Source: Podarcis tiliguerta (lineage: Eukaryota). Taken from it: DNA of 64,000 nucleotides. The position numbers were made by a program, and so were the translations under genes. Numbering within the stretch: the first letter of the stretch is position 1; each line of letters opens with the position of its first letter. A model generated the notes under the pieces. That model did no database searches. It was not told the origin of the DNA and saw only the letters and a list, made by a program, of their open reading frames with translations. The DNA lies in NCBI GenBank assembly GCA_965153285.1, contig OZ229113.1; one strand, 5' to 3'. Below are positions 12,301-62,651 of the stretch, piece by piece.

Positions 12301-15300
12301 AATATATAGACAGTCATGGACTACATGGGGCAGTGGTCTCATTCTGTACAAGGCAGCTTCCTGTGGACATGATTTTCGGAACCTTCGCACTATTTTTATT
12401 ACAATATTTAAATTGTCTTCAAAACCAACATCTCAAGGCAATTTACACGCAAGATATTTATAAACAGTTTAAAAAAAAAACTTTTGAGAAACAGACTAAA
12501 ATTCTAGCAAATGGACGCTTGCAAATACTGTACCCATTTATCCAGCTAGGAATAAAGCTACAGTTCCCATAGAAAAGGATGCAATGAGAGTGAAATTGGT
12601 TTAAAGTTGGTTCACTCAACTTATTCAAGTGTTCCACTGATTAAATGGCTAATGGTGTTGTTTTGTCACAAAAGTGGGTTGTTGTTTTCCATTAGTGCAT
12701 TGATGCTACAATCCTAAACACGCTTAAGGTAGGAGTAAGTTCTATTGAAAAAGGTGAGACTTGCTTCTAAATAGACTGCCCACCCTACACCTGATGTGAA
12801 ACATGGCAGAAGGTGAGGGAAGTAATTTCAAGGAAACCACTGGGAGCTTAAAGTGAGCTTTTAATGGTTCCTTTGCTGAAGCTAGATGCATGCCCAATGT
12901 CCTTCATGGGTATTGCAAGTACTGTACACCTTGTTTCAGCAGGGGAAAGCAGCTTCCATTGAAACCACTGTTAAAATGAGGGGGGGTAGGGTATCCATTT
13001 TAGCAGTGTTTCAACAGAAGTTTCAAAAAGCAGCATGGAACTGTTAGAAAGCCTTATTGCAAACAAAGGACAGTGAGTGGGCTGATTTAAAGAGCAGTGT
13101 GGGGCTGTTTGCAAAAGGGCTTTCAAAAAGCCCCACACTGTGCTTCAAAGTCCTGACAGAGTGGGGACAGAGTTTAACATCACCCTCTACTGTTATCTCA
13201 TTATTAAATACCACAGGAAAGCACCTCCTGTCTGCCATATTTCCCAGATAAACACTTTGTGTTTCCATTTCAGACTTATGAGCAAAGAAAGTAAAAATGT
13301 TGGAAGAGGAATAAATGTTGCCATTGTAGACTGTGAGTAAAAAGACACAATCCTGTATGTGCTTTTTTAAAGAAATAAAAATGCTATGTCAAAGTGGCTA
13401 TGAGACTGTGAACCAAGAAAGCAACACTGGGAATCTCGTCTCTGCCATTAACTCACCCTGGTGGCCTTGCCTTGGCCTGTCTGCCATGATTGCCATAAGG
13501 ATTGCTGAGCCACTGTCTTGAAAGTGTTTGAGCACTCATTAAAAGTGCTCTTTAAAGACTTTAGTGGCCATTATAAAATGTATAATTTACAACAGTGATA
13601 CCTCACCTGCTTTGTCTCATTTATAGTGCTTATCATAGATTTTCCTGAGTGCTCTTCCTTTTGCACACAACACAACTTGTAATTCAGTGAGTTTTATAAG
13701 GAGCCGTGGATTCACAGAATCATAGAATTGTAGAGTTGGAGTGGACCACAGGGATCATCTCGTGTCCAACCCCCTGCGATGCAGGAATCTTTCTTCCAAC
13801 ATCGGCCTCGAACCCACTACCCTGAGATAAAGAGTCTCATGCTTTACCAACTGGACTTTAACTTTTTGTTTGGATCTTAGGATTTATATCATTATAGATT
13901 AGGTGTTTCCTTAGATAGAAACTTAGCAGTGTAACTGAAATTTGTTTATTTTTGATATCTTCCCTGCCAGCTTTTGCAGTGGTCTATACAAGGAGCGGGA
14001 CGCAAGTGGCACTGTGGGTTAAACCACAGAACCTAGAACTTGCCGATCAGAAGGTCGGCGGTTCGAATCCCTGCGACAGGGTGAGCTCCTGTTGCTCGGT
14101 CCCTGCTTCTGCCAACCTAGCAGTTCGAAAGCACATCAAAGTGCAAGGAGATAAATAGGTACCGCTCCGGTGGGAAGGTAAATGGCATTTCCGTGCGCTG
14201 CTATGGTTCACCAGAAGCGGCTTAGTCATGCTGGCCACATGACCCAGAAGCTGTACGCCAGCTCCCTCAGCCAATAAAGCAAGATCAGCGCCGCAACCCC
14301 AGAGCCGGTCACGACTGGACCTAATGGTCAGGGGACCTTTACCTATACCAGGAGCAGGGATTTATTTATTTTTGGGTCTGGGATCTTTATCTGGCCTCAC
14401 CCCACCGACCAACTTTAGCACGTGGGTGGTACAATCCATTTGTCAGTCTCATGTCACTTCGATGTCACATGATTGTCAGGTGGATTGTCTCCCCCTCCCC
14501 CCCACACACACCTGTAGAAATCCCTTGTATTCTCCATGATCCCGTTTCAGCATGGGAGAGCAGGGACTGAGCACTCTTTGCAGCACTTTCTTCCACCCTT
14601 TTAAAGATCACAGCTGGAACAATCTCTCTCTCTCTCCCAAGATCACAATGTGTATGATAGCAGTGTCTCACACAAAATGTAACTGACCTGTAGAAAAGAC
14701 TCTATAAACTGAAAACAAAGACGCTGTGTGTACCTTTCTTATCTATGGAAATCTTTCAATGAAAACATTTTAAGCAGGAGGGACGGGAACGGAAGACTGC
14801 TGCAAAGGGTGTGTGCTTTAAGTCAGTCCCCGCTATATCACACCTGTGCACTGAAGAATGGACCTGAGCAACAACAAAAGTGCCTCTTTCCTCACTGCTG
14901 TGTGACAGAGCAGTTTTTGTCAGAGCTGATGTCTAAAGTAGACATAAGCTCCAGTGTCAGGGACAGTGCTTTCTTGCAGCAGTGAAGAGAACAAAACTCC
15001 AATAAAAGCAAACAGACCGTTTGTTTGGTAAAGCCTTCCCCATGCTGATCCTTTGGGAAGGTTGGAGGGATCAACGCAGGGTGGACTTTCCAAGAAGGTC
15101 CCACACATCAGCTGAACATCATCAGTGGCACCATCTGATTGGTTTGGGGAGAAAGGCCTCATGGACCAAATTAGACCCACAGGTGGGCCTGGATTGACTC
15201 AAAGGCCATAGGTGCCCACCTTGCCTACACAAAGATGCACAGACCTGCATACATGGCGCATGATGTGTGCTTATTGCCCTCTTCATTCTAAACTAAACAT

Positions 15301-18300
15301 TTTTGTTTGGGAGATTTTGGAAACATTTTTTCTGTATTGTTTTCTTTCATTTTTTTTAATGCATTCTCTTCCTTACAGATAACACTGGGAAGCTTGTTGA
15401 TGCAAAATCTTTTGACATGTGGCAAGGAGGTAAGAGGCATGTCTATGTTCAATATTGTTATAAAAGCGTCTGCCAAAAATCCTCATGCAGTTATGACACT
15501 TATGCAATATCAGAGAGTAGAGCGTGTCTACAGCAGATTGTTTGGATCATGGACATACAACTCAGCCTTTACTGAGGCTCCCATCCCAAGCACTTTCTCT
15601 ATATTGCTCCTTTTCCTTCAGTGGAAGAGAGACATTGAGTTGGAAGGCAAGAGTTTTGGGGGGAAGGGATGTCAGGGGAAGGGAGAATCCCTCTTCCAGT
15701 TTGCTGGAACTGAGACCACCCTGTTCTACCCACGAGTGAAACTTCACTCAAAGTTTTCTTGGGTCCTGCCTTGTCCGAAAAGAGCAAGAATACAATGTTT
15801 GAGGGGGAAATAGCACATTTATGTAGGTTTCTCTCCCCACTGCCATTAACAGCATTCTCCAGACCACTGGCTGATTTTGTCCAAAAAGCACCCCAGAAAT
15901 CTCTGCTCCTGATGGTGACCTATGATGATGGAAGCTCAAGGTAAGCAAACAGATTTATGGCCCTGTTTTTAACATAGCTAGTGGTTTCACTTTGCAGACT
16001 TGAGAAATAAGGTAGCAAAATATGTGGTGGTATGATAAATTTTATCTCCCATCTTACCAAATACACTTGAATTTTCCTATACAGTATACATACATGGACC
16101 CCTTGGAGGCCACAGTCTGGTGTTCATGTCATATTTTGAGGAATGTGTTAAATATTGGCTTCAAAACTCATTTCCTCAAGCAGTTGTTTAAAATTCTAAA
16201 TTTATTTTTTAATATTTATTTTTCTTTTATTTTTAATTATATAGCACCACAACAAACAACAGGTTAAAAAATACACTGAGACAGAGGGTATCTTGGGGCA
16301 TTGTAACATAAGAACTCAAAGATTTCTTTATGATCCAGATACAGTCTTACCTTAGAAGTCAAACAGAATCCGTTCCGGAAGTCTGTTCAACTTCCGAAAC
16401 GTTCGACTTCAAAAGCATGGCTTCTGATTGGCTGCAGGAAGCTCCTGCAGCCAATTGGGAACTGTGGAAGCCCTGTCAGACATTTGGCTTCCAAAAGAAC
16501 ATTAGAAAACCAGAACAATCACTTTTGGTTTTTGATTGTTCGGGAGCTGGTACATCCAATTCCCACAGTGTTTGGGAGCTAAGGTACGACTGTAATTAAC
16601 TTCTAAACTTCACTTAGACTTCTAAAGTGTCACCTGGTAGCATCATGACTGATGTGACTGATATATATTCGGGGGGTGGGGTGGAGCAGGAACATAGGGG
16701 AACTGAGTTCCTTTATCTTTTTTTGAATTAAATAATTATTTTTTTTGTTCAGGGGTTGGGGCTGGAATGATATACACTCAATGCCTGAGCCAAAAATCCA
16801 CCTGTATCTCTAATCACTAAAGTTGTGGCCATTTGTAATCCAGATCATTGTCTGCTTGAGTTTATTACGTAATCACATCTTACATTTAGCCACTGCCTCG
16901 TGTGTGTGAGTGTGGTAGTGCAACTGGGCCCTAAATAAACAAACAAACTTACTTCATATTGAGTACCCCCTCCTTTCCCCCCAGAAAAAAAGCACTAGAT
17001 ATACTTGTGCAATCATCAGTTTTATCCGTTTGCATAATTTTAAAACAGGAACACAATATTTCTCTGATGCAGAAACTTGATACCTGATGCTGGCTTTTTT
17101 GGATCCTTTGTTCCTAAGCGATTGCCAACAACTTGTTCATGTTATTATGTATTTTAAGGTGGCTTTAACAGAATAAATAAGAGTGGTAGTGTTGCAAGCA
17201 GGTGATAAGGTGATGCATGGAAATGAATCCATTTAATTCAGTGGGATCTTTTTCTGAGTAGACATGCTTAGGATTGTGCTATTAATGCTCTTTATTTCTA
17301 AGTGCTAAAGAAAACATTTTAGGAAGAAATTAAATCTGAAGAATAAGAATATCGGAAGAAATCTATCCTATCCTATTCAGACTTTAGCTTTTAGCAAACA
17401 TGAGTTGTCAAAGGTACAAAATTCGGATTAATCCTTTCTCTCTCACATAGGTTAATGGAGGATGCGAAAAAGGCAATAGCAGATCTAGGAAGTAAAGAAA
17501 TAAGGAATTTGAAATTCAGGTCAAGCTGGGCCTTTATAGCAGCAAAAGGTTTTGAACTGCCAGCCGGCACACAAAGGGAAATGGTAAGACTTGTGTAAAT
17601 TAAGAGACTCAAAAATGTATATGGATGTAGATAACACTTGCTAGAACCGCAGAACTTTAAATACTGATGTGTTTCATGTAGTCTAGCTATGTTCTACGAT
17701 GGACATCCAAACAAATGAAATAAAAGCTATCCATATTGGCTAACTTACAGTAATGGAACCGTAGAATTAGAGAGTTGGGTCATCTAGTACAACCCCCTCC
17801 AATTAGGTAATCTCAACTAAAGCATCCCTGAAAGATGGCCCCTCCGACCTCTGCTTAAAAATCTCCAATGAAGGAGAGTCCACCAGCTTTTGAGGGATTC
17901 TGTTCTCCTGTCAAACAGCTTTTACTGTCAGAAAGTTCTTCCTGATGTTTAGCTGGTATCTCCTTTCTTGTAACTTGACTACATTGGTCTGAGTCATCCT
18001 CTCTGGAGCAGGAGAAAACAACCTTGCTTCATCTTCCATGTGACAGCCCTTAAGGTATTTGAAAATAGCTCACCGTATCCCCTCTCAGTCTCTTCTTTTT
18101 ATCAGGCTAAATATGCCCAACTCCCTCAACCGTTCCTCATAAGGCTTGGTTTCCAGACACTTTATCATAGGGTCACCCTCCTCTGCACACAGTAACTTAA
18201 CTAATATTATGAGAGTATATTACCGTCCACTTTTGTAACAGAGAGCCAGTGTGGTGTAGTGGTTAAGAGCGGTAGTCTCATAATCTGGGGAACCGGGTTC

Positions 18301-22285: not shown

Positions 22286-22631
22286 AATCATAGAATCATA
22301 GAGCTGGAAGAGACCACAAGGGCCATCGAGTCCAACCCCCTGCCAAGCAGGAAACACCATCAGAGCACTCCTGACATATGGTTGTCAAGCCTCTGCTTAA
22401 AGACCTCCAAAGAAGGAGACTCCACCACACTCCTTGGCAGCAAATTCCACTGTCGAACAGCCCTTACTGTCAGGAAGTTCTTCCTAATGTTTAGGTGGAA
22501 TCTTCTTTCATGTAATTTGGATCCATTGCTCCGTGTCCGCTTCTCTGGAGCAGCAGAAAACAACCTTTCTCCCTCCTCTATGTGACATCCTTTTATATAT
22601 TTGAACATGGCTATCATATCACCCCTTAACC
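22286..22631 (-). mobile_element. CR1 LINE 3' fragment (young)
   Basis: Minus-strand RLRGDMIAMFKYIKG...FLTVRAVRQWN.LP..VVESPSLEVFKQRLD, the CR1 ORF2 C-terminus; (ATTCTATG)n terminus; absent from the duplicate promoter copy. Confidence 0.92.
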
Positions 22632-22718
22632 TTATAAAATGCAAAAGGAGCAGATGGCTGCTCATTCTGGTGTGATGCTGATCTGTTTCAGATGGAACCA
22701 GTTCAAGGATCTGAATGA

Positions 22719-22872
22719 AGTTTCGTTTCCTCGTCATGAGACAGCATTATTTTCAGTTTCCTTTCTGTGTTCTGCAGCGAGGAAAACTGACACACTGTTG
22801 GGACCCTTGCGATATTGCTTTTGGTGTGGGATAATGCCATTGGTTAGATGCCTTTTTAAGTTTCGATTTCCC
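22719..22872 (+). promoter_or_regulatory. ISRE cluster, distal copy of Mx-A promoter
   Basis: AGTTTCGTTTCC (22719), TTTCAGTTTCCTTTCT (22751), AAGTTTCGATTTCCC (22858); Mx-type and canonical ISRE forms upstream of an Mx gene. Confidence 0.75.
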
Positions 22873-22971
22873 TGAACAGGAAAGGCGGAGCTGATGCTGA
22901 CACAATAGAAACAAGAGCAGCAGGCAAGCAGCATTTCCCCCAGAGCAAGAGGTCAGAATCCTTCCACAGGA

Positions 22972-23178
22972 CAGTCATACCTCGGGTTGCAGACGCTTCA
23001 GGTTGCGTTTTTTCAGGTTACGGACCTGCCGAAATCCGGAAGTACTGAAACGGGTTACTTCCGGGTTTTGGGGTTCACACATGCACAGAATCGCTACCCG
23101 CGTGTTCACAGACATGCCGCTGCAGATTGCCAACGTGCATCCCGCATGGATCATGTTCACAACCCAAGCATCCACAGT
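22972..23178. mobile_element. Tigger-like MITE in the distal promoter copy
   Basis: cagtcatacctcgggttg start; absent from the proximal duplicate. Confidence 0.75.
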
Positions 23179-24732: not shown

Positions 24733-24971
24733 AGTTTCGTTTCCTCGTCATGAGACAGCATCATTTGCGGTTTCCTTTCTGTGTTCTACAGCGAGGAAAA
24801 CTGACACACTGTTGGCACCCTTGCGAAATTGCTTTTGGTGTGGGATAATGCCATTGGTTAGATGCCTTTTTAAGTTGCGATTTCCCTGAACAGAAAAGGC
24901 GGAGCTGATGCTGACACAATAGAAACAAGAGCATCAGGAAAGCAGCATTTGCTCCCAGAGAAGAGGTAAGA
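24733..24971 (+). promoter_or_regulatory. ISRE cluster and putative non-coding exon 1 donor, proximal copy of Mx-A promoter
   Basis: AGTTTCGTTTCC (24733), GGTTTCCTTTCT (24769); consensus donor AG|GTAAGA at 24966. Confidence 0.72.
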
Positions 24972-25377
24972 ATCCTTCCATAGAATAATCAGCCTGCAGG
25001 CAGGATTTCCATTTGGGGAACGGGAAGGGAGAGCCTGGAAAGTAATGACCTCACAGGGTGGATTAAATGTCTGCAAGCAGAGGAGTCTCACTGGGTAGGA
25101 GGGGGAAGAGGGAATGTTGTTCACTGCCCCATTCAAGGGTAGCTAGCGTGGTGTCCTCCAAAAGTTGTTGGGTTACAATTTCCATGCCAAATTGAATTCA
25201 GTGGTTTGGGAAACTTGTTTTTGGCATGTCAAAGCTAAATGCATTCTTAATTTACAAATAGATTCTTATGTGGCATTGAATTATATATTGCTAAATATTT
25301 GGGGGGGTCAGTATGGATGATACCCAGGGATCTCTTTGAAAGCTGCAGTCCAGTTTATGAGAACGTAACATCTATAA

Positions 25378-44869: not shown

Positions 44870-46290
44870 GGCTTCCCCTGCTCTTATAGTCGGCCCCACT
44901 CGGGTGGAGTGAGGAAGCATCTCTGCAGTGTTTGTGGGTTTTTCTTCCATCTGAGGCTCTTCCAGCTCAAGCGCGCAAGATATTTCCTCATCCAGAGCCT
45001 ACTGCACTTACGTTCGGCGGGGCCAGCTTTCCTGCACCCCAAACCTACAAAGAAGGCGGGGGGGGGGATAAGAAGGTAAAGATGCAGGGATCGGGCGTAA
45101 GGCCCGCTTCGTCCGGCATCCGGCCCCAAGGTGCCTTCTGGGAAGCTCGCCAGCAGGATCCGACCACAGCTGCGCCCTCCCCGCTGGCGATCCAGGGAAC
45201 TTAGTTGCTACGCCGGGCACCATCCTCTCCGCTCCCCGCCCCTTCCCGCTTTCCTTTCTGCCCAGATTTTACTTTTAAGTTTCATTTCCCCAGATTTTGT
45301 CCCGGGGAAGAGGCGGGGCGAGGGATGCTGCTAAATTGCCGGCCCGGAGATCCAGAGGAGACTGGCTCGGAGTCGCTTCGGTGGACGCAACAGCCAGAGA
45401 TCCGGCAGCGGGACAGATCGCCACCCAAGATCTCCGCTCCGTAAAGGTAACGTTTCCCCTCGACCCTTTCGACGCCTTGCTGTTAATCGAGTGATAGGCA
45501 AACAACCTTCTAGGAGAGATTTCATTTTATGCCGCAAGAGGGCGAGCGACGCTGGTTGCGGCTCCGCCTTCCCTCCTGGAAGAGCCGAAAGGTCTCGCTC
45601 GGTCCTTGGAGGCGCTTCAGCCTTTCCATTTAATGGGGCGAATAAAGGCTTCGTGGGGCGGGAGGGAGGGGCCATGTTCTCGGGCCCCTGGCTTGGGGAG
45701 GAAGGGCGGCGTTGATTGGCCCCCATTGCGCTCTGCCTTCGCGCCCCAGGACGCAGCAGGTGGGAAGCGTCCCGCCCGAAGTCCTGCTGGATACGGGGGT
45801 GGGAGGGTTAGTCTCGAGAAGTGAAGTTGGGATTAATAAAGGGGGCGTGGGATTTTGGTTAGGAGGCGCAGACCCTCGGATTCGTATTGCTTTTTATTGA
45901 TGGGGGGAACTGCCCCCTTGGCTACGCCAGGGAAGGGGGCTCAGTTCCCTCAGGCAGGCACGCGAAGTGCCACAAAACAGCCTGAGGGACGCAGTCGGGT
46001 TGTCGTTCTTTCACGGTCCTGTAGCACCAGCCCAGAAGTGATGCTCCGCTCCGGGCTAGTCAGGCTGTCCGGTGTAGAGAGGCGGTGTTTTCTGAGGGAA
46101 GACTGCTGGCGCCCCTTGTGGCAGAAGCGAATAGCGCTGAAGCCCTTTTGTCACCTGATATGAACGCTCCTTGTAGTTTTGGGCGTTGGCTGGTTCTTGT
46201 TTGGAGCCGCGCTAAAAGGTTCCTGTTCCAGGCAGATGCAGAGCTTGATGCCCCCTTGGTGTGGGGAAGAGCTAAGGATGGAAGTGTCAG
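44870..46290. promoter_or_regulatory. CpG island promoter of Mx-B with ISREs and non-coding exon 1
   Basis: GC/CpG-rich; TTTCCTTTCT (45250) and AGTTTCATTTCC (45278); GC boxes ccccgcccc and ggcggggcg; donor AAG|GTAACG at 45447. Confidence 0.8.
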
Positions 46291-49415: not shown

Positions 49416-50104
49416 GAACGCTTGTTGTTGCTGCAAAAGACTTAACATGCCTAGCCCTCAAGAAAAGGGAAAAATACATTATTGCAGACAGGCACATGGT
49501 GAGGAAAAAAAAATACACACGGTGGCATTTTTTTAAAAAAAATCCAATTTATTTAAATGAAAGGATATGGATATGCAAGCTTGCAAAAGCAGAACTTGTT
49601 TGCACAGGACTCTTCCTTTTGAACTTTCCCTTTTGTCTGGATCTGAGAGAGCAGAGTTTTATAGTTCTAGCCTTAGAGTTTTTTCATTCAGCTTGTATAG
49701 CATTCTGACCTTACCTGGAAGTAAACCCTATGGTATACAGTGGGACTTGCTTCCAAGTAAACCACATAGGATTGCACTGGAAGTGTATTAAATATTGAAC
49801 CATTGTTGGATAAAGATATTATGCAGATTGACAGCTATCTTGCATTAAGATGGAATGTAAAATGCTGTGCAGATGTTTTCCTTTCCTTCTGCTTCTTTAG
49901 ATAGTTAAGTTGAGAATAGTGGAGGCAAACATTCTAATGTATCTCCTGCTTCCAGATCTCCATAAACATGTGCCTGCGCCATTTTCACCCACCCACATCC
50001 ACAGTTCCAATCCAGCCCCCATCACTGCTTTGAGCTTTTCTTATTCTTGACAAAATGTCTAATATCATTTCAGGAATCAATAAAAGAAAGTCCCAGATAA
50101 CTAA

Positions 50105-50383
50105 ATGTTGAAGTCCTCTTTCTGGCGTGAGTCTCCATCTGACCGGCGCACTCGGAAAATTAGGAGCAGGCGCTCTTCAGTTGAGGAGATGGATAACCCA
50201 TGGAATCTGCAACGAAATGGGACTATAGGCACCATCCCATCACTGTTGCCAGAAGAAGCTAAATCTATACAATATTTTGCTACACCAAATGTATTTGCTC
50301 CATCAAAAATGGAAGGCTTTGTGTTCAGTCCCATAAAACAAGAGGATGTGGATCAACTGGGAAAACAAAACCAACCTAATAAA
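50105..50383 (+). CDS. MX1: Mx-B first coding exon (93-aa N-terminal domain)
   Basis: Acceptor tttcag ending at 50073, open frame to gtaagt donor, phase 0; second in-frame ATG at 50189 (MDNPW). Confidence 0.75.
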
Positions 50384-53300
50384 GTAAGTCTTTTGAGTTA
50401 ATATGCACCTTGTTAGCACTGAAATACTGCAATTTAGAGCCAACTTTTTAGTCAAGGTTGTGCATTCTTGACACTAAACAAATCTAGGATTGTATGCCTC
50501 AGAAATCCAGATTACTGGCCAAGAAAATCTGAAATTATGTGGGTCTGCATAATTACTCTTATTTTCTGAAATTTATCCTGCTGCTTCTCCCTTGAGCCCT
50601 GCTTGTAACTAAAGTCATACCTTGGAAGCAGAACGCCTTGCAAGTCGAGCGTTTTGGCTCCCGAATGCTGCAAACCCAGTGAGTGTTCCGGTTTGCGAAC
50701 ATTCTTTGGAACCCAAACATCCAGTGCGGCCTCCGATTAGCTGCAGGAGCTCCCTTGGTTTCCAAATGTTTTGGAAGTCGAATGGACTTCCGGAACGGAT
50801 CCTGTTCGACTTTCGAGGTATGACTGTACTGGATATCTTACTCAGCCACCCCTCTGGCTTTGGAGAGCTTAACAGGTGTTGCCCACACACTCTCAAGAGT
50901 ATAGGCTCCTAGCCATAAGAGCCTGTGTGAGGGTTCAGGGAGCAGATGTTGGAACAGGACCCATTACAAGACTAGTAGGGGAAGGAAGGATGGATGGAGA
51001 GGGGAAACCACAAGGGAGGCCACTGTCTTCCTCTCTAGATGGCCAGTTGTCTTGAGTGAGAGGGAATCTTTCTCATGGGAACTAACCTGCCTGGTGTGTT
51101 GTCTTTTTCTGGAAGGAGACTGGTTATGAATCAACTATGTTAGTGATGTTTGAGAATGATAACGAACACAAATTCTGCTCATGGTCCTGTTGGAATATTC
51201 TAGTTGCTAGGCAATGGAAAATTTCTCCAGCAACAGGTGTCCTTATCAGGGAAGTCTGGGTCAGTGTAAATGACTACAGTCATACCTCAGAAGTCGAAAG
51301 GAATCTGTTCTGGAAGTCTGTTTGACTTCCAAAATGTTCTGAAACCAAAGTGTGGCTTCTAATTGGCTGCAGGAAGCTCCTGCAGCCAATCAGAAGCTGC
51401 GGAAACCCTGTCGGACGTTCGACTTCTAAAAATAGTTCGCAAACCAGAATACTCACTTCCGAGTTTATGGTGTTCGGGAGCCAAAAAATCCAAGATCTAA
51501 GCTGTTCAAAAACCAATGTTCAATTGTATGTGAATGAGTCAGCATTAGGTATCTGGCCTGATGGCTAAAAAGAGAAAAAGATTATGTTGCCTTATTTGCT
51601 TTGCTCATTAATGACCAGTGGAAAGTTTTGTAAATAACATATACTCTGAGAAACAGGACCAGATGATGTTTATTCCTGTAATGGGAATTTCACTAAGAGA
51701 TAGCTGGAATGCTGCTGATGCTATAAAGAAGTAAAAGATGCAGAAAAGCCTTTCTGTAAAAAGGAACTCTTTTGCAGAAAGAAATGAAAACCCAAGAGTA
51801 AGATGCTCACACACCAAAAAGACGTGCCTAGCCTGGTCTAGAACCAATGCTACTTTTTGTGCATGTTCAGTGATCTTTTTGATCCAAGCTGCTCCTTTGA
51901 GTGTCACTCAGTGTTTGAAATACAATTCTGGCTTAGCTTTACATCTGACCCAAGGGCGGTTCTTTTGTTTCTTCATCGTAATTTGTTCGAATGAAACAAG
52001 CCCCCAGTTTAGACATAACTTCAGAGATTGTGTTTTGTGGTCCCATTTGCGCAAAGCAGGAGTTTTCTCCCTATTCAAAGCAAACCATTAACCACGGCTC
52101 AGATGATGTATGAATAGAGCCACATACTAAAATGGAAGTGAACTGTGTATTTGTGTGTTTTTAACCAGAAACCAGAAAACACCTTATTCAACCAATACGA
52201 GGAGAAGATCCGCCCTTGTATTGACCTCATTGATACCCTGAGAGCCCTCGGAGTGGAGAAGGACTTGGCATTGCCAGCAATTGCTGTGATTGGAGATCAA
52301 AGCTCAGGGAAAAGCTCAGTTCTGGAAGCTCTTTCTGGAGTCGCTCTTCCAAGGGGCAGTGGTGAGAAATCCCGCCGGCTTTTCCTTCTGGGAAGCTTTG
52401 AGGATGTGCAAGTTCAGAGATTTTTTAACTTCAGTGTTCCTACTTTATAAGAGGCATCTTTATTTTCTAAAGTTACCTTCTCTTTGGTGTCTTTGCCTGC
52501 ATTATTTTAACATCTCAGAGGGTTGGATACACTTCAAAGAAAGCAATGTTACCAGTTAGAAGTCTCTCATTTATGAGAAACTAAATTGATTTTAAAAAAA
52601 TCTTTTTGTAATATTATCGGGGGGGGGAGGGGAATGGCACTGTTCACCTATAAGGTTAAGTGCAAAGATTTTAAGATAGCTGCCTACATCTGCAGTATTG
52701 CTCAGATTATTTATGGAGGTCCATTTTAGGAGCTGATTTTGCCCTAGAACTAGGTGTCGTTTCATCATAATCCATGGGATTCTGCCTGTTTTTAGCAATC
52801 TTTAGGAAGTTTCTGTGAATCTGAATAACCTATACTTTTAATGAATTGGATTCTCTTCATGAACAGGCATTGTCACCAGATGTCCCTTAGAACTCAGGCT
52901 AAAAAAGCTGCAGCCTGGTGAAAAATGGAATGGGAAAATCAGTTACCTGGGAAAATATATGGAACTTGCAAATCCTTCAATGGTAGAAATAGAAATAAGA
53001 AAAGGTGAGTGTTGTGGTTTCCATTATAGTCAATAACAGATCATTATTTTCTTTCTTAATTTCCTTCTATTATAAATGAGAATATTTCTTCAACCAAATT
53101 CTATGTATAGTCCCAAAACCAGTGATGAGGTTTACCAGAAAATTTAGGGTAATTTTGCACTGGATTTTTTAAAATTAAAATAAGGTTTCTTATAAAATCT
53201 TATCCAATTTAGTGTATTTATTTTACTTTTATTTAGCAAACAAAGCTTAACACTTGATAACAATGAAGCTTCTCTCACGTTGTATTTGACATTGATTGTC

Positions 53301-55962
53301 ACAAATGAACTTATGAACTCATCAAAAACACACTGGATTTTTTTCCATTCTACATTGCTGGCCAAATATCTTCGATGGCTAAAGTTTGCAAGATGTGGAG
53401 GCTAATGCATTGCTGAAATCAAATGATGGCTCTTACGTGGCTTCTATAGTATTCTTCTAACCTTTCCCAGCTTTCCCAATTGCTGTCCTCCAGCAGGTTG
53501 GGTTTTTTTTAGGTTGGGGGGGAGAGTCTTGTGGGCATTGTGGTGTCACAGATGCCCCATGAAGGGGTCCCAGGTCTGCAATGATTGGCAGCTGCTATTT
53601 AGAAGATTCAGGCAGAGATGTTTCCCCCACTCCTGTCTCCCTGGAGATGGTTCAGAGATTGAACCATGGGAAATTCTGTATGCAAAAAACAACAGCCCTT
53701 GAAAATAAAACTGCACCATTGGAAACCAGAATTAACTTTTACAAGAAAATTTATAACGGTTCCGTTAACACTGTTTGATAAACATAGCCATATTAACCTT
53801 TCCAGTCTCAGAACTTCATTAATTATAAGAAGATACAGTCATACCTCGGGTTGAAGTTGCTTCAGGTTGAGTGCTTTTGGGTTGTGCTCCGCAGCGACCC
53901 GGAAGTAACGTAACGCGCTACTTCTGGGTTTCGCCGCTCGCGCATGCGCAGACAGTCAAAATGACGTCACACGCATGCGCGGAAGTGGCGAATCGCGGCA
54001 CGCGCAGTCACAGGTTGCATTCGCTTCCGGATGTGAACGGGGCTCCGGAACGGATCCCGTTCACATCCTGAGATACCACTGTACTGATTTTCTAAAGAGT
54101 TTTTCTTCCTTCCAAGTTTGGCACCTGTGTTGTATAACAAATGGTAGCCAGAAGAGGCTGCCAGTCCTATGACATGATATTCTGAAATGCTGATGTTAAA
54201 CTTTTTCTTGTTTCTTCATTCCAGCTCAGAACATAATAGCTGGTGATGGAGTGGGCATTAGTGATAAACTAATTACCCTTGAAATTAGATCTCCTGAAGT
54301 TCCAGACTTGACTCTGATTGATCTGCCAGGGATTGCAAGAGTGGCTGTGGGTAATCAGCCAGTAAATATTGGAGATCAGGTAAAACACTAAATATCTTGG
54401 CCAAGATAAGTGTACTGCATTCCTTACTAGGTTTCTGCTCCTTTCCTGCTGCTTCTTGCAAGCTCCCAGTCCTGGTGCTTTCTGCCTACCCCCTAAACTG
54501 GCAACCCCAGTCCTCTTTCAGCCTTGCATCTTGCCCAGTATATTATCCTGCCTTGATTCCTGTACTAGCTTCAACTTGGCTTAGGTAACTTTCTATCAGA
54601 CAGTGAAATAACTATACAGTAGCTCTAACAGCAGTTCTGTTTGTCTTCATTGCAGATCAAAAAGCTGATTAAAACATTTATTGATAAACAAGAGACAATA
54701 AATTTAGTGGTGGTTCCAAGTAATGTTGATATTGCCACAACAGAGGCGCTGAAAATGGCCCAGGAGGTGGATCCAAATGGAGAGAGAACTCTTGGTAAGG
54801 AGGCAAAATAATTCTCCTTAACTTTGATAATCTTGCACTGTTGAAATGAGTACATGCTTTTCAGATCCCAGAATGTCGGTATTTGTAGGTTGTTGTTGCT
54901 TTAAATGGTTCATGGTCACTGTTTGTTTAGTTCCTTAAATATTCTTTATTTATCTCACTAACCCACATGAAAACATGCGTTTCCTCTCTTCCTCATCATG
55001 AAGACAAGCAAAAGGTCCCCAATTCTATATAGGGAGTTTTGCTGGAGTGGCAGCTGGACTTTATTCAGCACTGGCAATGGGACAACATACTTCATCGTAC
55101 CTGAAAGTTAGCTTAGGGAATTCAGGGGAAGTGGTGGTTTCTCTATAATGTTTCAGTTGGCCCTGGTTCAAAGACACAATATTTTGCTTAATTCAACTGC
55201 AAGAAAGTAGAACTCTTTGGCCTGCATGATGGTTTTTGAGCCCTTGATTTTGCCAATGCAGGCAAGATGATTTCTATACAAGTGTGAATAGTCCTTCAAT
55301 TATGCGTCACCTTTGCCATTTTGTATTATGTTGGGTTTTTTCCTAATGTTTTTCCGTATTTCATCCCAAGGGATCGTGACAAAGCCTGACCTGATGGACA
55401 GAGGAACTGAGGGGACAGTTGTGAACATAGTGAGAAACCAAGTTATTCCCTTGAAAAAGGGATATATGATTGTGAAATGTCGTGGGCAGCAAGATATCCA
55501 GTCCAGCATGACCTTGGCCTCTGCACTCAAGGAAGAAAGAGCATTTTTCGAGAAACATAAATGCTTTAGGTACTCATGGACTGGAGAGTGATTTTTAAAA
55601 CAATAGTATAATTACAGTTACTTAAACGGCCTCGGTCCTGTATACCTGAAGGAGCATCTCCACCCCCATCGTTCAGCCCGGACACTGAGGTCCAGCACCG
55701 AGGGCCTTCTGGCAGTTCCCTTATTGCGAGAAGTGAGGTTACATGGAACCAGACAAAGGGCCTTCTCGGTAGTGGTGCCTGCTCTGTGGAATGCCCTCCT
55801 ATCAGATGTCAAGGAAATAAGCAGCTATCCTATTTTTAAAAGACATCTGAAGGCAGCCCTGTTTAGGGAAGCTTTTAATATTTAATGCTGTATTGTTTTT
55901 AATACTCGATTGGGAGCCACCCAGAGTGGCTGGAGAAACTCAGCCAGATGGGCGGGGTATAA

Positions 55963-55998
<36 letters not shown>

Positions 55999-58900
55999 TT
56001 ATAAACCACACTTTTCACAAGAAGCAAAGTAATATTGTGTAAAACGTAATGCAACACTAAAAACATCAGTGAGTTTAACTTCAATTGTTAGCATCAGATT
56101 TTCTAGTAAACATTTTCTTTGTTCCCATACAGTATCCTTCTACAGGAAAAAAAGGCCACAGTCCCCTTACTAGCCGAGAAACTGACAAGCGAGCTTGTGG
56201 AACACATTTCCGTAAGTTAGCAAAATGACACTTTAAAAACACCGAAACATCAACCCCAAAGTTTGTTTCTTTACTCATTACAAGTTTTTTCCCCCCAGCA
56301 CCATATACGTCCTTTCTTTCTTTCTTTTTTTCTTTTTAGAAATCTTTGCCCACTTTAGAAGAGCAAATAAGATTTCAACTCCAAAAAACATATACTGAAA
56401 TGCAGAGATATGGCAAAGCTGTGCCAAAAACCGATGGCGAGAAACAATATTTTTTAGCAGAGGTAAGTATACTGATGAAGACTCACGCTAAACTTTTCTA
56501 GTCTTAATAGTGTTATGCAGACAACATATGTCAGTGTAAGAGTATGTGAGCCTTGGAGGCATCCAGAACCAGCAGCCAATGTAAGATAAGTCATGAACCT
56601 GTCTTTGCTGTAAATCAAAGATGCTTTTTGTCATTTGAGTTTCTGACCTATCTCACTCTGTGTACAACACATTTAGCTACTTTTCTGTTCTGCCTACTGG
56701 AAAGCTATGTAAAGAGTTCATAAGGAGGAGAAAACGTAGCATAGTTATACACCAACAAAAACTGAAGTTAGTTTGTAACTCTATTCCCACTTACCTGGGA
56801 AGAAGCTTGATTGAACTCAGTGGTACTTCCTTCATAATGGTTGCCCATTTGCATTCTTACATACTTTGTCTCTTACATATTCTCAATTATTTTCTGGGAT
56901 GAATACTTCCAGTGATTACATTCAACTAATCTTAGGCCTCCAGTTTATTAATTAGTCATCCTGATTTGCTTGCACAAAGTTTACATGGTGGTTAGATGTT
57001 GTCTAGTCTTCGCTGAGCAGTCATTCAGATTTGTTGGTTGTTTATCCCACACTTTTGGGGCATTTTCCCATCACTATCCAAAGTGGATTGTGCTTTAATT
57101 CACTTTCATTGCACAAACATAAATTTCCAGTATTCTGTTTACTTTATCCCACAAAATACTGACAATCTGGAGTCAACTAAGACATACGCATTCTTTCTAA
57201 TATGAGCCATTCAGTTCCAAAATGATTACATTGCTCATAGCTTTATGGAGGCAAGTTCTGGAACAAATTTTGGATGCTTTTTTAAAAAAGATTGGATGTG
57301 TTTGTCTGCTTGGACACATTGCCAGTCAATTTGCTTGATCATTTTAACATTATGGACTTGCTGTCTGAGTTGAATTGATGTCTGCAACATAATTATTTAT
57401 GTATTTCATAAAATTTATATACTGCTTGATTGTAGGGGGGGTACTCAAATTAGTTTACAAAAAGATAACAAAAAAAATCTCTAAAAAAAAGTGCACCATA
57501 ATTAAAAACATACAAAAAGTTAAAGCCACAATAGAATAGACTAAAATAAATTAAAACTCATCAGAGCAGGACTTTCTAAATATTGCTAACATTGCAACAA
57601 AAATAATCACTCATTTTCATTGCTGAAAAAACACTTTGTTCAGATTTGAAACATGCACAAAACAAATTGTCTTTATAATCAACAAACCTCATTGCATCTC
57701 TTTAAATTGTTTGCTTTCACAGAAAATCGAGCACTTTATTGCAGATGTTGGAAGCACAGTACAAGGAGAAGAAAGTGTGTCTGAAAATGAAGCCAGACTG
57801 TTTACCAAAGTTCGTAAAGAATTTCAGAAATGGGGCGAAGGAGTTGCTAGTAGTGGCTTTAAAAGTAAGTACAGACTGTTAGGATATTTCCGTTCTACCT
57901 TAAAAGAGAGCAGGCTTTGTGAGTCACAGAGTCTGCGTATTTCCTGTTCACAGAAAGTTTCTGTTTGTGAATAGCTTTCGATTTCTCTCTGTGCCTGAGA
58001 CATCGAAGCAGGCAGTCATGTTTTCTCTTTGTTCTGAGCAACGCTGAATAAAGTTGTAAATATACTCTCCTGAGTGCATCTTTCGCTGTACAAACTCTGC
58101 TGATAGAGCGTGCACCAGCTCTGGAATGTGGCAAGCTATTTCTGAAGCTCGTGTCGCTAATTGAGTGATACTGTATCTACGGGAGATCGATGGATCGTCC
58201 GGAATCGACGTGGGGTCATGATGGCTTTTGTCTCCCTGGCAGTATCCCAACACAGACTACTCTGTGTCTAGAATAGCTCCTGTTTTAATAGCATCACATG
58301 TCCCTTCTAAACTGAGTCTCCAGGATTAGAAATGGCTACCTTAAAATAAAAAGGTGTGTGCATTTAAAAGAAATGCTGTACAAAGAACTTTGTTTTGAGG
58401 TAAGATGTTAAGTCCAGCTTATCCTTGTCTGGAGATTTTATCAACCTTAAATGGAAGGGGCGATGGAGTAACAGACATGATTAGGTTTAAGCAGGATGCA
58501 TCCTAAGATTTTGTGTTATCAGGCACCTGGGAGAAGCAGTGGATGATCTTTGGTTGCTTTTAAACCAACTGCGAAGGGAAAGTCCAATGCTGTAAAGAGA
58601 AATATTGCATAGGAACCGGAAATGTAAGAACCATGAACCTGGGTAAGTTGGATGTGGTCAAAAATGAGATGGCAAGAATAAATATTGACATCCTGGGCAT
58701 CAGTGAACTAAAATGGACAGGAATGGGCGAATTCAGTTCGGATGACTATCATATCTACTACTGTGGGCAAGAAACCCGTAAAAGAAATGGAGTGGCCCTC
58801 ATAGTCAACAAAAGAGTGGCAAAAGCTGTACTGGGATGCAATCCCAAAAATGATAGAATGATCTCGATACGAATCCAAAGCAGACCTTTTAACATCACAG

Positions 58901-61900
58901 TAATCCAAGTTTATGCACCAACTACTGGTGCTGAAGAAACTGAAATTGACCAATTTTATGAAGACTTAAAACACCTTATAGAAGTGACACCGAAGAAGGA
59001 TGTTCTTCTCATTATAGGGGACTGGAATGCTAAAGTAGGGAATCGAGATAAAAGGAACAACTGGCAAGTTTGGCCTTGGAGATCAAAACGAAGCAGAGCA
59101 AAGGCTAATAGAGTACTGTCAAGAGAACAAGCTGGTCATCACAAACACTCTTTTCCAACAACACAGGAGTCGACTCTACACATGGACATCACCAGATGGG
59201 CAGTATCAAAATCAGATTGATTATATTCTCTGCAGCCAAAGATGGAGAAGCTCTATACAGTCAGCAAAAACAAGACCTGGAGCTGACTGTGGCTCAGATC
59301 ATCAGCTTCTTATAGCAAAATTCAAGCTCAAACTGAAGAAAGTAGGAAAAACCACTGGGCCGGTAAGGTACAATCTAAACCAAATCCCTTATGAATACAC
59401 AGTGGAAGTGAGGAACAGGTTTACGGATTTAGATTTGCTGGACAGAGTGCCTGAAGAACTATGGATGGAGGCTCGCAACATTATACAGGAGGCAGCAACG
59501 AAAACCATCCCAATGAAAAAGAAATGCAAGAAAGCAAAGTGGCTGTCCAATGAGGCCTTACAAATAGCGGGAGAGAGAAGGCAAGCAAAATGTGAGGGAG
59601 ATAGTGAAAGATACAGGAAATTGAATGCAGATTTCCAAAAAATAGCAAGGAGAGACAAGAAGGCCTTCTTAAATGAGCAATGCAAAGAAATAGAGGAAAA
59701 CAACAGAATGGGAAGAACCAGAGATCTGTTCAAGAAAATTGGAGATAAAAAGGAATATTTCGTACAAAGATTACCATAATAAAAGACAGAAGTGGTAAGG
59801 ACCTAACAGAAGCAGAAGACATCAAGAAGAGGTGGCAAGAATACACAGAGGAATTATACCAGAAAGATACGGATGGCTTGTACACCCCAGGTAGTGTGGT
59901 TGCTGACCTTGAGCCAAACATCCTGGACAGTGAAGTCAAATGGGCCTTAGAAAGCACTGCAAATAACAAGGCCAGTGGAAGTGATGGTATTCCAGCTGAA
60001 CTATTTAAAATTTTAAAAGATGATGCTGTTAAGGTGCTACACTCAATATGCCAGCAAGTTTGGAAAACTCAGCAGTGGCCAGAGGATTGGAGAAGATCAG
60101 TCTACATCCCAATCCCAAAGAAGGGCAGTGCCAAAGAATGCTCCAACTACCGCACAATTTCACTCATTTCACATGCTAGCAAGGTTATGCTTAAAATTCT
60201 ACAAGACAGGCTTAAGCAGTATGTGGACCGAGAACTCCCAGAAGTGCAAGCTGGATTTCAAAAGGGCAGAGGAACCAGAGACCAAATTGCAAACATGCGC
60301 TGGATTATGGAGAAAGCTAGAGAGTTCCAGAAAGACATCTACTTCTGCTTCATTGACTGTGCAAAAGCCTTTGATTGTGTCGACCACAGCAAACTATGGC
60401 AAGTTCTTAAAGAAATGGGAGTGCCTGATCACCTCATCTGTCTCCTGAGAAATCTCTATGTGGGACAAGAACTGGATATGGAGCAACTGATTGGTTCAAC
60501 ATTGGGAAAGGAGTACGACAAGGCTGTATATTGTCTCCCTACTTATTTAACTTATATGCAGAATTCATCATGCAAAAGGCTGGGCTGGATGAATCCCAAC
60601 CCGGAATTAAGATTGCCGGAAGAAATATCAACAACCTCAGATATGCAGATGACACAACCTTGATGGCAGAAAGTGAGGAGGAATTAAAGAACCTTTTAAT
60701 GAGGGTGAAAGAGAAGAGTGCAAAATATGGTCTGAAGCTCAACATCAAAAAAAAGAAGATCATGGCCACTGGTCCCATCACCTCCTGGCAAATAGAAGGG
60801 GAAGAAATGGAGGCAGTGAGAGATTTTACTTTCTTGGGCTCCATGATCACTGCAGATGGTGACAGCAGCCACGAGATTAAAAGACACCTGCTTCTTGGGA
60901 GGAAGGCAGTGGCAAACCTAGACAGCGTCTTAAAAAGCAGAGACATCACCTTGCCAACAAAGGTCCGTATAGTAAAAGCTATGGTTTTCCCAGTAGTGAT
61001 GTATGGAAGTGAAAGCTGGACCATAAAGAAGGCTGATCGCCAAAGAATTGATGCTTTTGAATTATGGTGCTGGAGGAGACTCTTGAGAGTCCCATGGACT
61101 GCAAGAAGATCCAACCTTTCCATTCTGAAGGAAATCAGACCAGAGTGCTCACTGGAAGGACAGATCCTGAAGCTGAGGCTCCAATACTTTGGCCACCTCA
61201 TGAGAAGACTCCCTGGAAAAGACCCTGATGTTGGGGAAGATTGGGGGCACAAGGAGAAGGGGACGACAGAGGACGAGATGGTTGGATAGTGTTCTCGAAG
61301 CTACCAGCATGAGTTTGACTAAACTGCGGGAGGCAGTGGAAGACAGAAGTGCCTGGTGTGCTCTGGTCCATGGGGTCACAAAGAGTCGGACACGACTAAA
61401 CGACTAAACAACAACAATAACAACAAACCAACTTCAAGGCTCCTAGTTCTATTAAAAACACATTGAATAGGAAGAAACCTTTCAACCTCTATTTGGAACA
61501 CCTTAATAAAATACGTTACTGATGCTGAATTTTGTTGCTGGACAACAAATCCCTTCACCTCTGACTATTGACCATGCTAGCTGAAAATTAACAGTGGAGA
61601 GCACTGTGTTAGATAGGGACCCCTGACAGTTAAGTCCAGTCACAAACAACTCTGGGGTTGCGGCGCTCATCTTGCTTTACTGGCTGAGGGAGCTGACATT
61701 TGTCCGCAGACAGTTTTTCTGGGTCATGACTAAGCCACTTCTGGCAAAACCAGAGCAGCGCACGGAAATGCCGTTTACCTTCCCGCTGGAGAGGTACCTA
61801 TTTATCTACTTGCAGTTTGACATGCTTTCGAACTGCTAGGTTGGCAGGAGCTGGGACCCCTGTGCTGATTTGGGGACTTCTGTAATGAAAAATGATGGTG

Positions 61901-62651
61901 TAAATTAAACAAACCTAAACCTATCCTGATTCCAACTAATGGTTCCCGGGGTGATTTACTGAGCTTTTTGTAAATCCGTGACAGGTTTTGGGGGTTTTAA
62001 AAAAATGTTCTTCTTCCTGCAGTTCAAGAATCCCTACTCCCCGAGAAGTGGAAATTTGAAAATCAGTATCGTGGCAGAGAGCTTCCTGGATTTCTCAATT
62101 ACAAGACGTTTGAGATGATTACAAGGAAATATATCACCAATCTAGAAATACCAGCTGTTGATATTCTAACTAGAGTTACAGGCAAGTCCATTTATTAAAT
62201 TTAGATTTCTGGCTACTGGGACAGTGTAAGTTGTTTTAAATCATTTTAAATGTTGCAGTTGTACCCGCCATAGGACTTTAGGGTGAAAGGTGTGTAATAA
62301 AGGAGATTGATTATACATAACATAAAAATATGAAAGGGGTTTTCAAATACTATCTATATATAATAAAAGCACATGCAATGTAAGTGATTTTGCTTGAGCT
62401 GTGAAACCTCCAACATTTATATTTTTGTAAAAGGGCTGTAGGAAAAAATGAATGGAATTGTTAATGGTTTGGGTGTGTGCAACATTTTTACCAAAATACA
62501 TGTGAGAAAGCAAGAAATTATTTTTCTACACAGATTCTGATCATTTGGTGTATTCTCTCCCCCCCCCCTTTCAGAAATAGTGCGTCAAGGTTTTGTGGCG
62601 ATTGCTAAAAGCCATTTTGAAGGATTTCATAATCTTCATTCGGAAGCCAAG
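50105..62651 (+). CDS. MX1: Mx interferon-induced dynamin-like GTPase, paralogue B, 3'-incomplete in window (MX1/MX2 orthology unresolved)
   Basis: join(50105-50383,52169-52361,52867-53004,54225-54379,54656-54794,55371-55569,56133-56211,56340-56462,57723-57864,62023-62181,62575-62651...). Frame open throughout with [26 protein letters not shown] and YRGRELPGF; the L4 and GED exons are not in the window. Confidence 0.94.
50612..50826. mobile_element. Tigger-like MITE family 2
   Basis: agtcatacctt...aggtatgactg. Confidence 0.75.
51277..51526. mobile_element. Tigger-like MITE family 2
   Basis: Homologous to the 16342 copy. Confidence 0.75.
52169..52361 (+). CDS. MX1: Mx-B exon (P-loop)
   Basis: [18 protein letters not shown]...[23 protein letters not shown]. 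Confidence 0.96.
52867..53004 (+). CDS. MX1: Mx-B exon
   Basis: [14 protein letters not shown]...VEIEIRK. Confidence 0.95.
53836..54081. mobile_element. Tigger-like MITE (CpG-rich, young)
   Basis: TA|CAGTCATACCTCGGG...GATACCACTG|TA; related to the 22972 copy. Confidence 0.78.
54225..54379 (+). CDS. MX1: Mx-B exon
   Basis: AQNIIAGDG...[26 protein letters not shown]. Confidence 0.95.
54656..54794 (+). CDS. MX1: Mx-B exon
   Basis: [46 protein letters not shown]. Confidence 0.95.
55371..55569 (+). CDS. MX1: Mx-B exon
   Basis: [14 protein letters not shown]...[15 protein letters not shown]...FFEKHKCF. Confidence 0.95.
55617..55997 (+). mobile_element. L2-type LINE 3' fragment with (TTA)n tail
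   Basis: ggcctcggtcctgtatacctgaaggagc...gccttctcggtagtgg...tggaatgccct; tail (ATT)n. Confidence 0.7.
56133..56211 (+). CDS. MX1: Mx-B exon
   Basis: [26 protein letters not shown]. Confidence 0.93.
56340..56462 (+). CDS. MX1: Mx-B exon
   Basis: [11 protein letters not shown]...GEKQYFLAE. Confidence 0.93.
57723..57864 (+). CDS. MX1: Mx-B exon
   Basis: KIEHFIADV...QGEE...[13 protein letters not shown]. Confidence 0.93.
58571..61424 (+). mobile_element. BovB (RTE clade) LINE, near full length, frameshifted
   Basis: APE endonuclease ([25 protein letters not shown]) and RT ([18 protein letters not shown]) split across frames; (CAA)n tail; 9-bp TSD aaaccaact at 58562-58570 and 61425-61433. Confidence 0.95.
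61613..61858 (-). mobile_element. Sauria SINE, partial
   Basis: Reverse complement of the same SINE body. Confidence 0.82.
62023..62181 (+). CDS. MX1: Mx-B exon (ends at a GC donor)
   Basis: [21 protein letters not shown]...PAVDIL; 159 nt, same as the Mx-A exon. Confidence 0.93.
62575..62651 (+). CDS. MX1: Mx-B exon
   Basis: [26 protein letters not shown]; 77 nt. Confidence 0.92.

What the first reader, a model, noticed from the sequence alone, without database searches (positions are those of the whole stretch)
50105..50383. Mx-B has an MX2(MxB)-like Arg-rich N-terminal extension with a leaky-scanning two-ATG layout
Seen: the first ATG (50105) is in weak context (ctaaATGt) and opens [29 protein letters not shown] second in-frame ATG (50189, Met29) is in strong context (gagATGg) and starts MDNPW. 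Established: human MX2 makes a long isoform whose basic first 25 residues (RRR motif) give nuclear-envelope targeting and HIV-1 capsid binding, and a short isoform from Met26. From memory, chicken Mx begins MNNPW, which matches Met29 here. Inference: a squamate Mx may have independently gained a 28-aa basic leader that produces long (nuclear pore or capsid-binding) and short (cytoplasmic) isoforms, converging on mammalian MX2.
Basis: partly seen in the sequence, partly recalled or inferred. Interest (0 to 1): 0.75.

Follow-up and report, generated by a model that had tools for sequence, protein, structure and literature searches.

The report
Ancient MX2-style leader on reptile Mx
This lizard antiviral Mx gene opens with a conserved, arginine-rich 28-residue leader and a second in-frame start codon; a related leader is found in other lizards, turtles and crocodilians, so it is old rather than a lizard invention, and it likely yields long and short proteins as human MX2 does.

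Summary
ATG 50105 opens a 28-residue leader with 7 Arg; ATG 50189 is in frame, with no ATG between them. Spliced contigs from close relatives put both in the mRNA. The gene is an intact 710-aa Mx, 97% identical to Podarcis muralis 'Mx2-like'.

The interpretation needs changing. The leader is not a squamate gain: 9 of 12 squamate genera keep it, and it aligns with turtle and crocodilian leaders beyond shuffles (p 0.002-0.012). The gene groups with bird, crocodilian and turtle long Mx; a clade with MX2 alone is rejected (AU p 4e-5), and it sits in the MX1 slot of the locus.

Likeness to the eutherian MX2 leader (Lys3; Glu-Met at 26-31) is real but thin (p 0.004, falling to 0.09 without those columns). 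Shared amniote ancestry is somewhat more likely than convergence. There is no RRR motif, and ATG1 is only mildly weak in a measured table (77 against 83). Two isoforms and nuclear-envelope targeting are inferred, not shown. A 2023 review treats reptile Mx as MX1-like; I found no paper on this leader.

The parts
45248..45289 (+). Two ISRE-like elements of the Mx-B promoter (45248, 45278)
   Evidence: Pattern scan; sequence. Function inferred.
45360..45446 (+). Non-coding exon 1 of Mx-B (5' end approximate); GT donor at 45447
   Evidence: Spliced joint in 3 of 4 runs, with contigs reaching 79-94 nt upstream of the joint; no ATG
50074..50104 (+). 5' UTR part of exon 2; in-frame TAA at 50102-50104
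50105..50188 (+). ATG1 and the 28-codon basic leader (Lys3, Arg cluster 8-23, Ser-Ser-x-Glu-Glu)
50189..50191 (+). ATG2 = Met29, candidate start of a 682-aa short isoform
50192..50383 (+). Rest of the first coding exon (N-terminal domain to residue 93); AlphaFold pLDDT under 50, no secondary structure
   Evidence: (no Pfam match)
52169..62651 (+). Mx-B coding exons 2-11 (G1, G3 and G4 motifs at residues 135, 236, 305; stalk). The last two coding exons lie beyond the window, at 64518-64736 and 65294-65521 on the same count.
   Evidence: 710 codons, no internal stop, 97% identical to P0005; Pfam Dynamin_N, Dynamin_M, GED on P0005
27020..40653 (+). Paralogue Mx-A, with a short 20-codon first coding exon and no Arg leader (internal comparison)
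   Evidence: short-clade placement 100/99
11089..17580 (+). FAM3B-like exons (synteny anchor)
   Evidence: tblastn with the FAM3B part of P0223

Best explanation
Mx-B is an intact lacertid Mx GTPase gene whose first coding exon begins with a conserved Arg-rich 28-residue leader and an in-frame Met29; the leader is shared with turtle and crocodilian long Mx and likely descends from the same amniote ancestor as the MX2 leader, and leaky scanning likely gives a major long form and a minor short form, the leader predicted to act as a phosphorylation-tuned targeting or target-binding tail. Shown: intact gene, splicing that includes ATG1, conservation of the leader and Met29, placement in the sauropsid long-Mx clade with bird Mx, no orthology to MX2 alone. 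Inferred: interferon induction through the ISREs; initiation at both ATGs, with a short:long ratio of roughly 0.2-0.5; nuclear-envelope or nuclear targeting of the long form; control by the Ser/Thr-Pro site before the Arg cluster and the Ser-Ser-acidic site after it; common ancestry with the MX2 leader. Odds by step: leader translated and constrained 0.95; at least sauropsid-old 0.85; two isoforms 0.65; homologous with the MX2 leader 0.6; localisation role 0.55.
For: Splicing. Intact CDS. Leader in 9 of 12 squamate genera found; identity 0.51 against 0.46 for the rest of the exon; Met29 in 8 of 9 species, while the six other columns after residue 1 that hold a Met have it in at most 3 of 9. 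Leader profiles with both Met columns removed, 10,000 shuffles: squamate-turtle z 3.3, p 0.0025; squamate-crocodilian z 2.7, p 0.010; both hold after trimming up to 2 columns per end (p 0.002-0.012); squamate-MX2 z 3.1, p 0.004. Turtle-crocodilian z 5.1. K/R at residue 3: squamates 10 of 12, turtles 8 of 8, crocodilians 3 of 3, MX2 39 of 41, MX1 2 of 14; K in 10 of 127 control N-termini. Internal Met kept in 10 of 12 squamate rows, 6 of 8 turtles, 3 of 3 crocodilians and 33 of 41 MX2. Residue 2 implies no G at +4 of Met1 in 0 of 23 sauropsid long and 1 of 41 MX2 rows having G, against 11 of 14 MX1. Single-sequence scores against the squamate leader: median z 1.6 for MX2, -0.1 for 127 controls, 0.3 for 21 basic controls. 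With chimpanzee MX2 residues 1-125 as query, 7 of the 8 non-mammalian rows among the best 120 (of 1226) were squamate Mx-B; the eighth was a tandem fish model. A -3U start without +4G showed downstream initiation in 63% of mouse transcripts (PMC4299517). MX2 precedent: PMC7391006, PMC10224399, PMC9426416.
Against: The squamate-MX2 signal falls to p 0.09-0.11 when Lys3 and the Glu before Met are dropped. Turtle-MX2 and crocodilian-MX2 leaders are not significant (z 0.9, 1.4), and the rest of the exon shows no squamate-MX2 signal (z -0.1). MX1 N-termini also beat controls (median z 1.3), so the signal is not MX2-specific, and rows are related, not independent. Two amphibian N-termini score z 0.2-0.4. 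Rhineura has Ile at 29, and one Tiliqua paralogue lacks the Met. The gecko, Hemicordylus and Salvator models lack the leader. ATG1 scores 77 against 83, so leakage may be small and is below that paper's 0.5 cut-off. No RRR in 11 of 12 squamate rows. No monotreme, tuatara or chicken sequence was obtained. There is no protein-level or localisation data.
Confidence: 0.5

Rival explanations
1. Convergence at depth: a basic leader with a second Met arose twice, once in the stem-sauropsid long Mx and once in stem-eutherian MX2, by extending the same first exon upstream.
For: MX2 plus long Mx rejected as a clade (AU p 4e-5). The long gene lies next to the TMPRSS2-like gene, whereas MX2 lies next to FAM3B. 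The MX2 likeness rests on 2-3 columns. Basic N-terminal patches also occur in amphibian, elephant-shark and lamprey Mx models, and a rabbit MX1 model has an Arg-rich upstream extension, so such tails may arise easily.
Against: Same position at the start of the first coding exon; matching Lys3, leader length (25-30) and Glu-Met; both eutherian paralogues score above unrelated N-termini. A tree with long Mx sister to MX1+MX2 is not rejected (AU p 0.25).
Confidence: 0.3
2. One functional product: ATG1 is used almost always, and Met29 is kept as part of the Ser-Ser-acidic-Met protein motif, not as a start site. (This concerns isoforms and is independent of the ancestry question.)
For: FACS-seq value 77 for ATG1; Met29 lost in Rhineura; E27 and E28 are more conserved than M29; turtles have no inferred -3 purine with +4 G at this Met (0 of 6).
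Against: -3T/+4T context; no competing ATG between the starts; purine at -3 implied in 9 of 10 squamate and 33 of 33 MX2 internal Mets. Horse and baleen-whale MX2 models begin at the internal Met, so that start can be used.
Confidence: 0.3
3. One reading: the leader was gained within squamates, and archosaurs and turtles start at the Met29 equivalent.
For: The chicken ATG lies 92 nt into exon 2 (PMC4171530); some turtle paralogue models start at the Met29 column; the gecko model lacks the leader.
Against: 8 turtle models (both suborders) and 3 crocodilian models carry an alignable leader, in the same clade as lizard Mx-B.
Confidence: 0.06
4. The leader is untranslated 5' UTR that annotation pipelines extended to the first ATG.
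For: All relatives are predicted gene models, and none has peptide evidence seen here.
Against: Frame, Met1 and eight residues are near-invariant across five squamate families, and identity matches or exceeds that of the downstream exon.
Confidence: 0.03

Closest known systems
Human and eutherian MX2 (MxB), isoforms 1-715 and 26-715
   Same: Long disordered N-terminal domain (93 against 83 residues before the same exon boundary by alignment); Lys3; basic leader; Glu-Met second start at 26-31; serines right after the Arg cluster.
   Different: Not orthologous (AU p 4e-5) and in the other slot of the locus. No RRR (only 4 of 41 MX2 rows have it either). More Arg (5-7 against 0-5 in 28 residues), plus an acidic Ser-Ser-Asp-Glu-Glu patch. 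Isoforms, localisation and antiviral activity untested.
Avian Mx (chicken, duck, palaeognaths, passerines)
   Same: Same sauropsid long-Mx clade (97/95); non-coding exon 1 and a promoter about 4.8 kb upstream of the ATG in exon 2 (PMC4171530; here about 4.8 kb); an internal Met in good context (Met14, 9 of 9 rows chosen).
   Different: The leader is shortened to 13 residues or lost. Chicken and duck Mx are reported inactive against influenza (PMC8005160 passage).
Turtle and crocodilian long Mx (RefSeq 'Mx1/Mx2-like' models)
   Same: Same clade; alignable basic leader; Met at 29-30.
   Different: Much longer N-terminal domains (about 120-220 residues); Cys in the leader; weaker inferred context at the internal Met; crocodilians have RRR.
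Eutherian MX1 (MxA) and sauropsid short Mx (window Mx-A)
   Same: GTPase, stalk and GED core; ISRE promoter.
   Different: Short first coding exon (20-35 residues), 0-1 Arg, usually G at +4 of the start in MX1.

Membership tests
Mx dynamin-like GTPases | Dynamin_N, Dynamin_M and GED domains with G1, G3, G4 motifs in an intact frame | tested here: met
Mx dynamin-like GTPases | Groups with vertebrate Mx; FAM3B-Mx-TMPRSS2 synteny | tested here: met
   The TMPRSS2 name is inferred from an SRCR_2 hit and its position.
Mx dynamin-like GTPases | Interferon inducibility | tested here: inconclusive
   Two ISRE-like sites before exon 1; induction not measurable
Eutherian MX2 (MxB) orthologue | One clade with MX2 to the exclusion of MX1 | tested here: not met
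   MX1+MX2 clade 98/96; AU p 4.3e-5 on 33 of 55 rows. MX1/MX2 gene conversion (PMC4687636) may inflate this.
Eutherian MX2 (MxB) orthologue | Position next to FAM3B, upstream of the other Mx | tested here: not met
   Order here is FAM3B, short Mx, long Mx, TMPRSS2-like, against FAM3B, MxB, MxA, TMPRSS2
MX2-like architecture (works like) | Basic N-terminal leader of about 25 residues before a second in-frame Met | tested here: met
MX2-like architecture (works like) | Triple-arginine motif required for HIV-1 inhibition | tested here: not met
   Longest Arg run is 2. RRR is not needed for nuclear-envelope localisation (PMC4442396).
MX2-like architecture (works like) | Two translated isoforms | not testable with these tools
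   Only contexts and a reporter table
MX2-like architecture (works like) | Nuclear-envelope localisation and capsid binding through the leader | not testable with these tools
   No assay; N-terminal domain unstructured in the model
Sauropsid long-Mx clade (with bird Mx) | Groups with turtle and crocodilian long Mx and avian Mx | tested here: met
   97/95; 98

The most novel reading that the evidence does not exclude
The basic leader with a second start codon is the ancestral amniote Mx design, not a eutherian MX2 invention. Reptile long Mx and MX2 both kept it, while MX1, the sauropsid short Mx and (partly) birds lost it independently. Reptiles would then have an MX2-type, nuclear-pore-directed antiviral GTPase with a long/short isoform switch some 300 million years old (age recalled).
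Probability: 0.35. Interest if true: 0.68.

Novelty: new variant of a known kind. Interest (0 to 1): 0.45.

Why it matters
MX2's first 25 residues decide its localisation and its activity against lentiviruses and herpesviruses, and they are usually treated as a eutherian feature. A 2023 review says reptile, bird and fish Mx are MX1-like (PMC10224399). If the leader and second start are ancestral, MX1 is the derived, trimmed form. The leader would then have a conserved job older than lentivirus restriction, and lizard, turtle and crocodilian Mx become ready-made natural variants for asking what it is. It could also bear on why chicken and duck Mx, whose leader is cut down, look inactive in influenza assays (speculative).

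Tried and rejected
No run on record as RNA was listed, and contig depth cannot rank expression or fix the transcription start.

dN/dS was not computed: only Podarcis-level DNA was available (4 non-synonymous and 1 synonymous change in codons 2-28 against organism A, read), too few to use.

The 50%-identity representative search gave no identified monotreme, tuatara or chicken protein among the 10 of 150 rows named. The FASTA supplements of PMC4687636, which may hold platypus sequences, cannot be read here; this bears directly on the ancestry claim.

PMC11789081 has no passage on reptiles, platypus or N-termini. The bird-start test is split. The AlphaFold model (mean pLDDT 66, pTM 0.47) says only that residues 1-95 are unstructured, so no fold search was run. 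No complex was predicted: no suitable partner was available. By eye the leader fits neither a classical monopartite NLS nor a PY-NLS consensus (consensus recalled). P0006 was left out as an apparent Mx-A/Mx-B chimeric model. Earlier-findings look-ups returned nothing.

Full report
Observation. The exon is real and as described. The acceptor AG is at 50072-50073, and the exon is 50074-50383 with a phase-0 donor. ATG1 (50105; -3 T, +4 T) follows an in-frame TAA. ATG2 (50189; -3 G, +4 G) is the next ATG in any frame. Contigs of two related organisms, from runs that are RNA only by guess, splice a non-coding exon ending at 45446 onto 50074 in 3 of 4 runs, and 50383 onto 52169 in 3 of 4. Two ISRE-like sites precede exon 1, and the 118-nt reconstructed UTR has no ATG. 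Thirteen coding exons give 710 codons without a stop, 97% identical to Podarcis muralis XP_028583072.2. The window is therefore from a Podarcis-type lizard, and the long start is already in RefSeq models named 'Mx2-like'.

Conservation in squamates. A search with P. muralis residues 1-200 listed the best 120 of 2550 hits. The leader is present in Podarcis, Lacerta, Zootoca, Rhineura, Elgaria, Phrynosoma, Sceloporus, Anolis and Tiliqua, and absent from the Hemicordylus, Eublepharis and Salvator models: 9 of 12 genera (Phrynosoma was placed by its N-terminus, not by tree). In 9 species of five families (window and Tiliqua rows left out), between-family identity is 0.51 for residues 2-28, 0.46 for 30-93, and 0.74 for the core (5 species). 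R8, R14, R15, E27 and E28 are invariant; R17, S24, S25 and M29 are kept in 8 of 9. The leader is thus under constraint as protein. Rhineura has Ile29.

Age. Eight turtle and three crocodilian long-Mx models, chosen because they begin with a leader (shorter turtle models and one alligator paralogue were left out), open with Met-x-Lys, a basic cluster at 14-21 and usually a Met at 29-30 (6 of 8; 3 of 3). Profile alignment of the leaders, with both Met columns removed and 10,000 column shuffles, gave z 3.3 (p 0.0025) for squamate-turtle and z 2.7 (p 0.010) for squamate-crocodilian, stable to trimming. The core tree puts Mx-B with these genes and with bird Mx (97/95), Mx-A with short squamate and turtle Mx (100/99), and MX1 with MX2 (98/96). 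The careful tree used 33 of 55 rows, dropping long and redundant ones; the deepest forks are unresolved. A gain within squamates is therefore unlikely.

Relation to MX2. The gene is not an MX2 orthologue. A long-Mx plus MX2 clade is rejected (AU p 4.3e-5), while long-Mx plus MX1 plus MX2 is not (p 0.25). The order FAM3B, short Mx, long Mx, TMPRSS2-like is the reverse of the mammalian FAM3B, MxB, MxA, TMPRSS2 (PMC4687636 section 8). Yet in 41 eutherian MX2 rows (one search hits with a full N-terminus, about one per genus) residue 3 is K/R in 39 and the internal Met is kept in 33, always after a residue whose codon starts with a purine. The squamate-MX2 leader test gave z 3.1 (p 0.004). It dropped to p 0.02 without the Glu and to 0.09-0.11 without Lys3 as well. 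Turtle-MX2 and crocodilian-MX2 were not significant, and the rest of the exon showed nothing. Against 127 unrelated natural N-termini (median z -0.1), MX2 rows scored 1.6, but MX1 rows scored 1.3 too; rows are related, so these are not independent tests. I put common amniote ancestry of the leader at about 0.6 and two deep gains at about 0.3. RRR is in 4 of 41 MX2 rows, 1 of 12 squamate rows and 3 of 3 crocodilians. 'Arg-rich' describes lizards better than it describes most MX2.

The chicken argument. No chicken sequence was retrieved. PMC4171530 (passages) gives an R5W polymorphism and 92 nt of exon 2 before the ATG, nearer to the lizard ATG2 offset (115) than to ATG1 (31). Against this, palaeognath starts align with the turtle leader (z 4.6, p 0.0015, one of 24 tests) and not with post-Met segments. 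Unresolved.

Mechanism. Shown: one mRNA with two in-frame ATGs 84 nt apart and nothing between them. Inferred: leaky scanning. The reporter table of PMC4299517 (supplementary file 4, rows) gives 77 for ATG1 and 83 for ATG2; the canonical Kozak context also reads 83 there, although the text scales it to 100. My reconstruction of their model (equation not shown in the text; k = 0.86) gives a short:long ratio of about 0.2-0.5, below their 0.5 cut-off. Their base rate for -3U without +4G is 63%. These are mammalian data. The N-terminal 95 residues are unstructured in an AlphaFold model. By analogy with MX2, where residues 1-25 are needed for nuclear-envelope localisation, the short form dampens the long one, and Ser14/17/18 phosphorylation represses it (PMC10224399 and PMC7391006 passages, PMC9426416 abstract), the lizard leader likely targets the long form. 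It could be tuned at the Ser/Thr-Pro and Ser-Ser-acidic sites (kinase consensus recalled). HIV-type capsid binding is doubtful: human MX2 needs RRR for it, though not for localisation (PMC4442396 passages).

Novelty. Ten literature searches (listings only, except for the papers cited) found no description of a reptile Mx leader or two-start layout. The library lacks most subscription papers, and the FASTA supplements of PMC4687636 were unreadable. PMC11789081 (term search) and PMC8005160 (passages) add nothing on it. PMC10224399 states that reptile Mx is MX1-like. Verdict: a real, conserved feature of a known gene family; a new variant of a known kind, more interesting as possible deep ancestry than as convergence, with function untested. 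Interest 0.45.

Noticed in passing
window 22630-22990 and 24643-25003: The Mx-A promoter and first-exon region, with its ISRE-like sites, is present twice about 2 kb apart and nearly identical. The first copy has GT changed to GTC-type spacing at the likely donor and the second lacks one ISRE match; this may be alternative promoters or a recent duplication.
   Followed up: partly
window 58564-61400: A broken LINE (endonuclease and RVT_1 matches) sits in the Mx-B intron between coding exons 9 and 10; the RTE-like label is recalled.
   Followed up: partly
P0055, P0066, P0073, P0046, P0053, P0070, P0079, P0109, P0047: Bird Mx keeps an internal Met (position 14, or 11) in all 9 rows chosen for having an upstream Met, 8 of 9 with inferred strong context, and many passerine models start there: a second two-start layout.
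   Followed up: partly
Sauropsids have an old two-paralogue Mx system (short and long) shared by squamates and turtles and separate from the MX1/MX2 duplication; the one snake protein found belongs to the short clade.
   Followed up: partly
P0185, P0146: Horse and baleen-whale MX2 models begin at the Met26-equivalent, i.e. short form only; the horse case is known (PMC10224399).
   Followed up: no
P0093, P0232: Salamander and frog Mx models both open with a Lys-Lys-Arg-Pro patch; it does not score against the squamate leader (z 0.2-0.4).
   Followed up: partly
P0225, P0199, P0050: Some eutherian MX1 have Asp-Met at 28-29, in register with squamate Glu-Met29, so the short MX1 exon may be a remnant of the leader.
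   Followed up: partly
window 50121, 50166, 50181: The window's allele differs from P. muralis and other relatives at F6, S21 and V26; V26 replaces the usual Asp of the acidic patch.
   Followed up: yes
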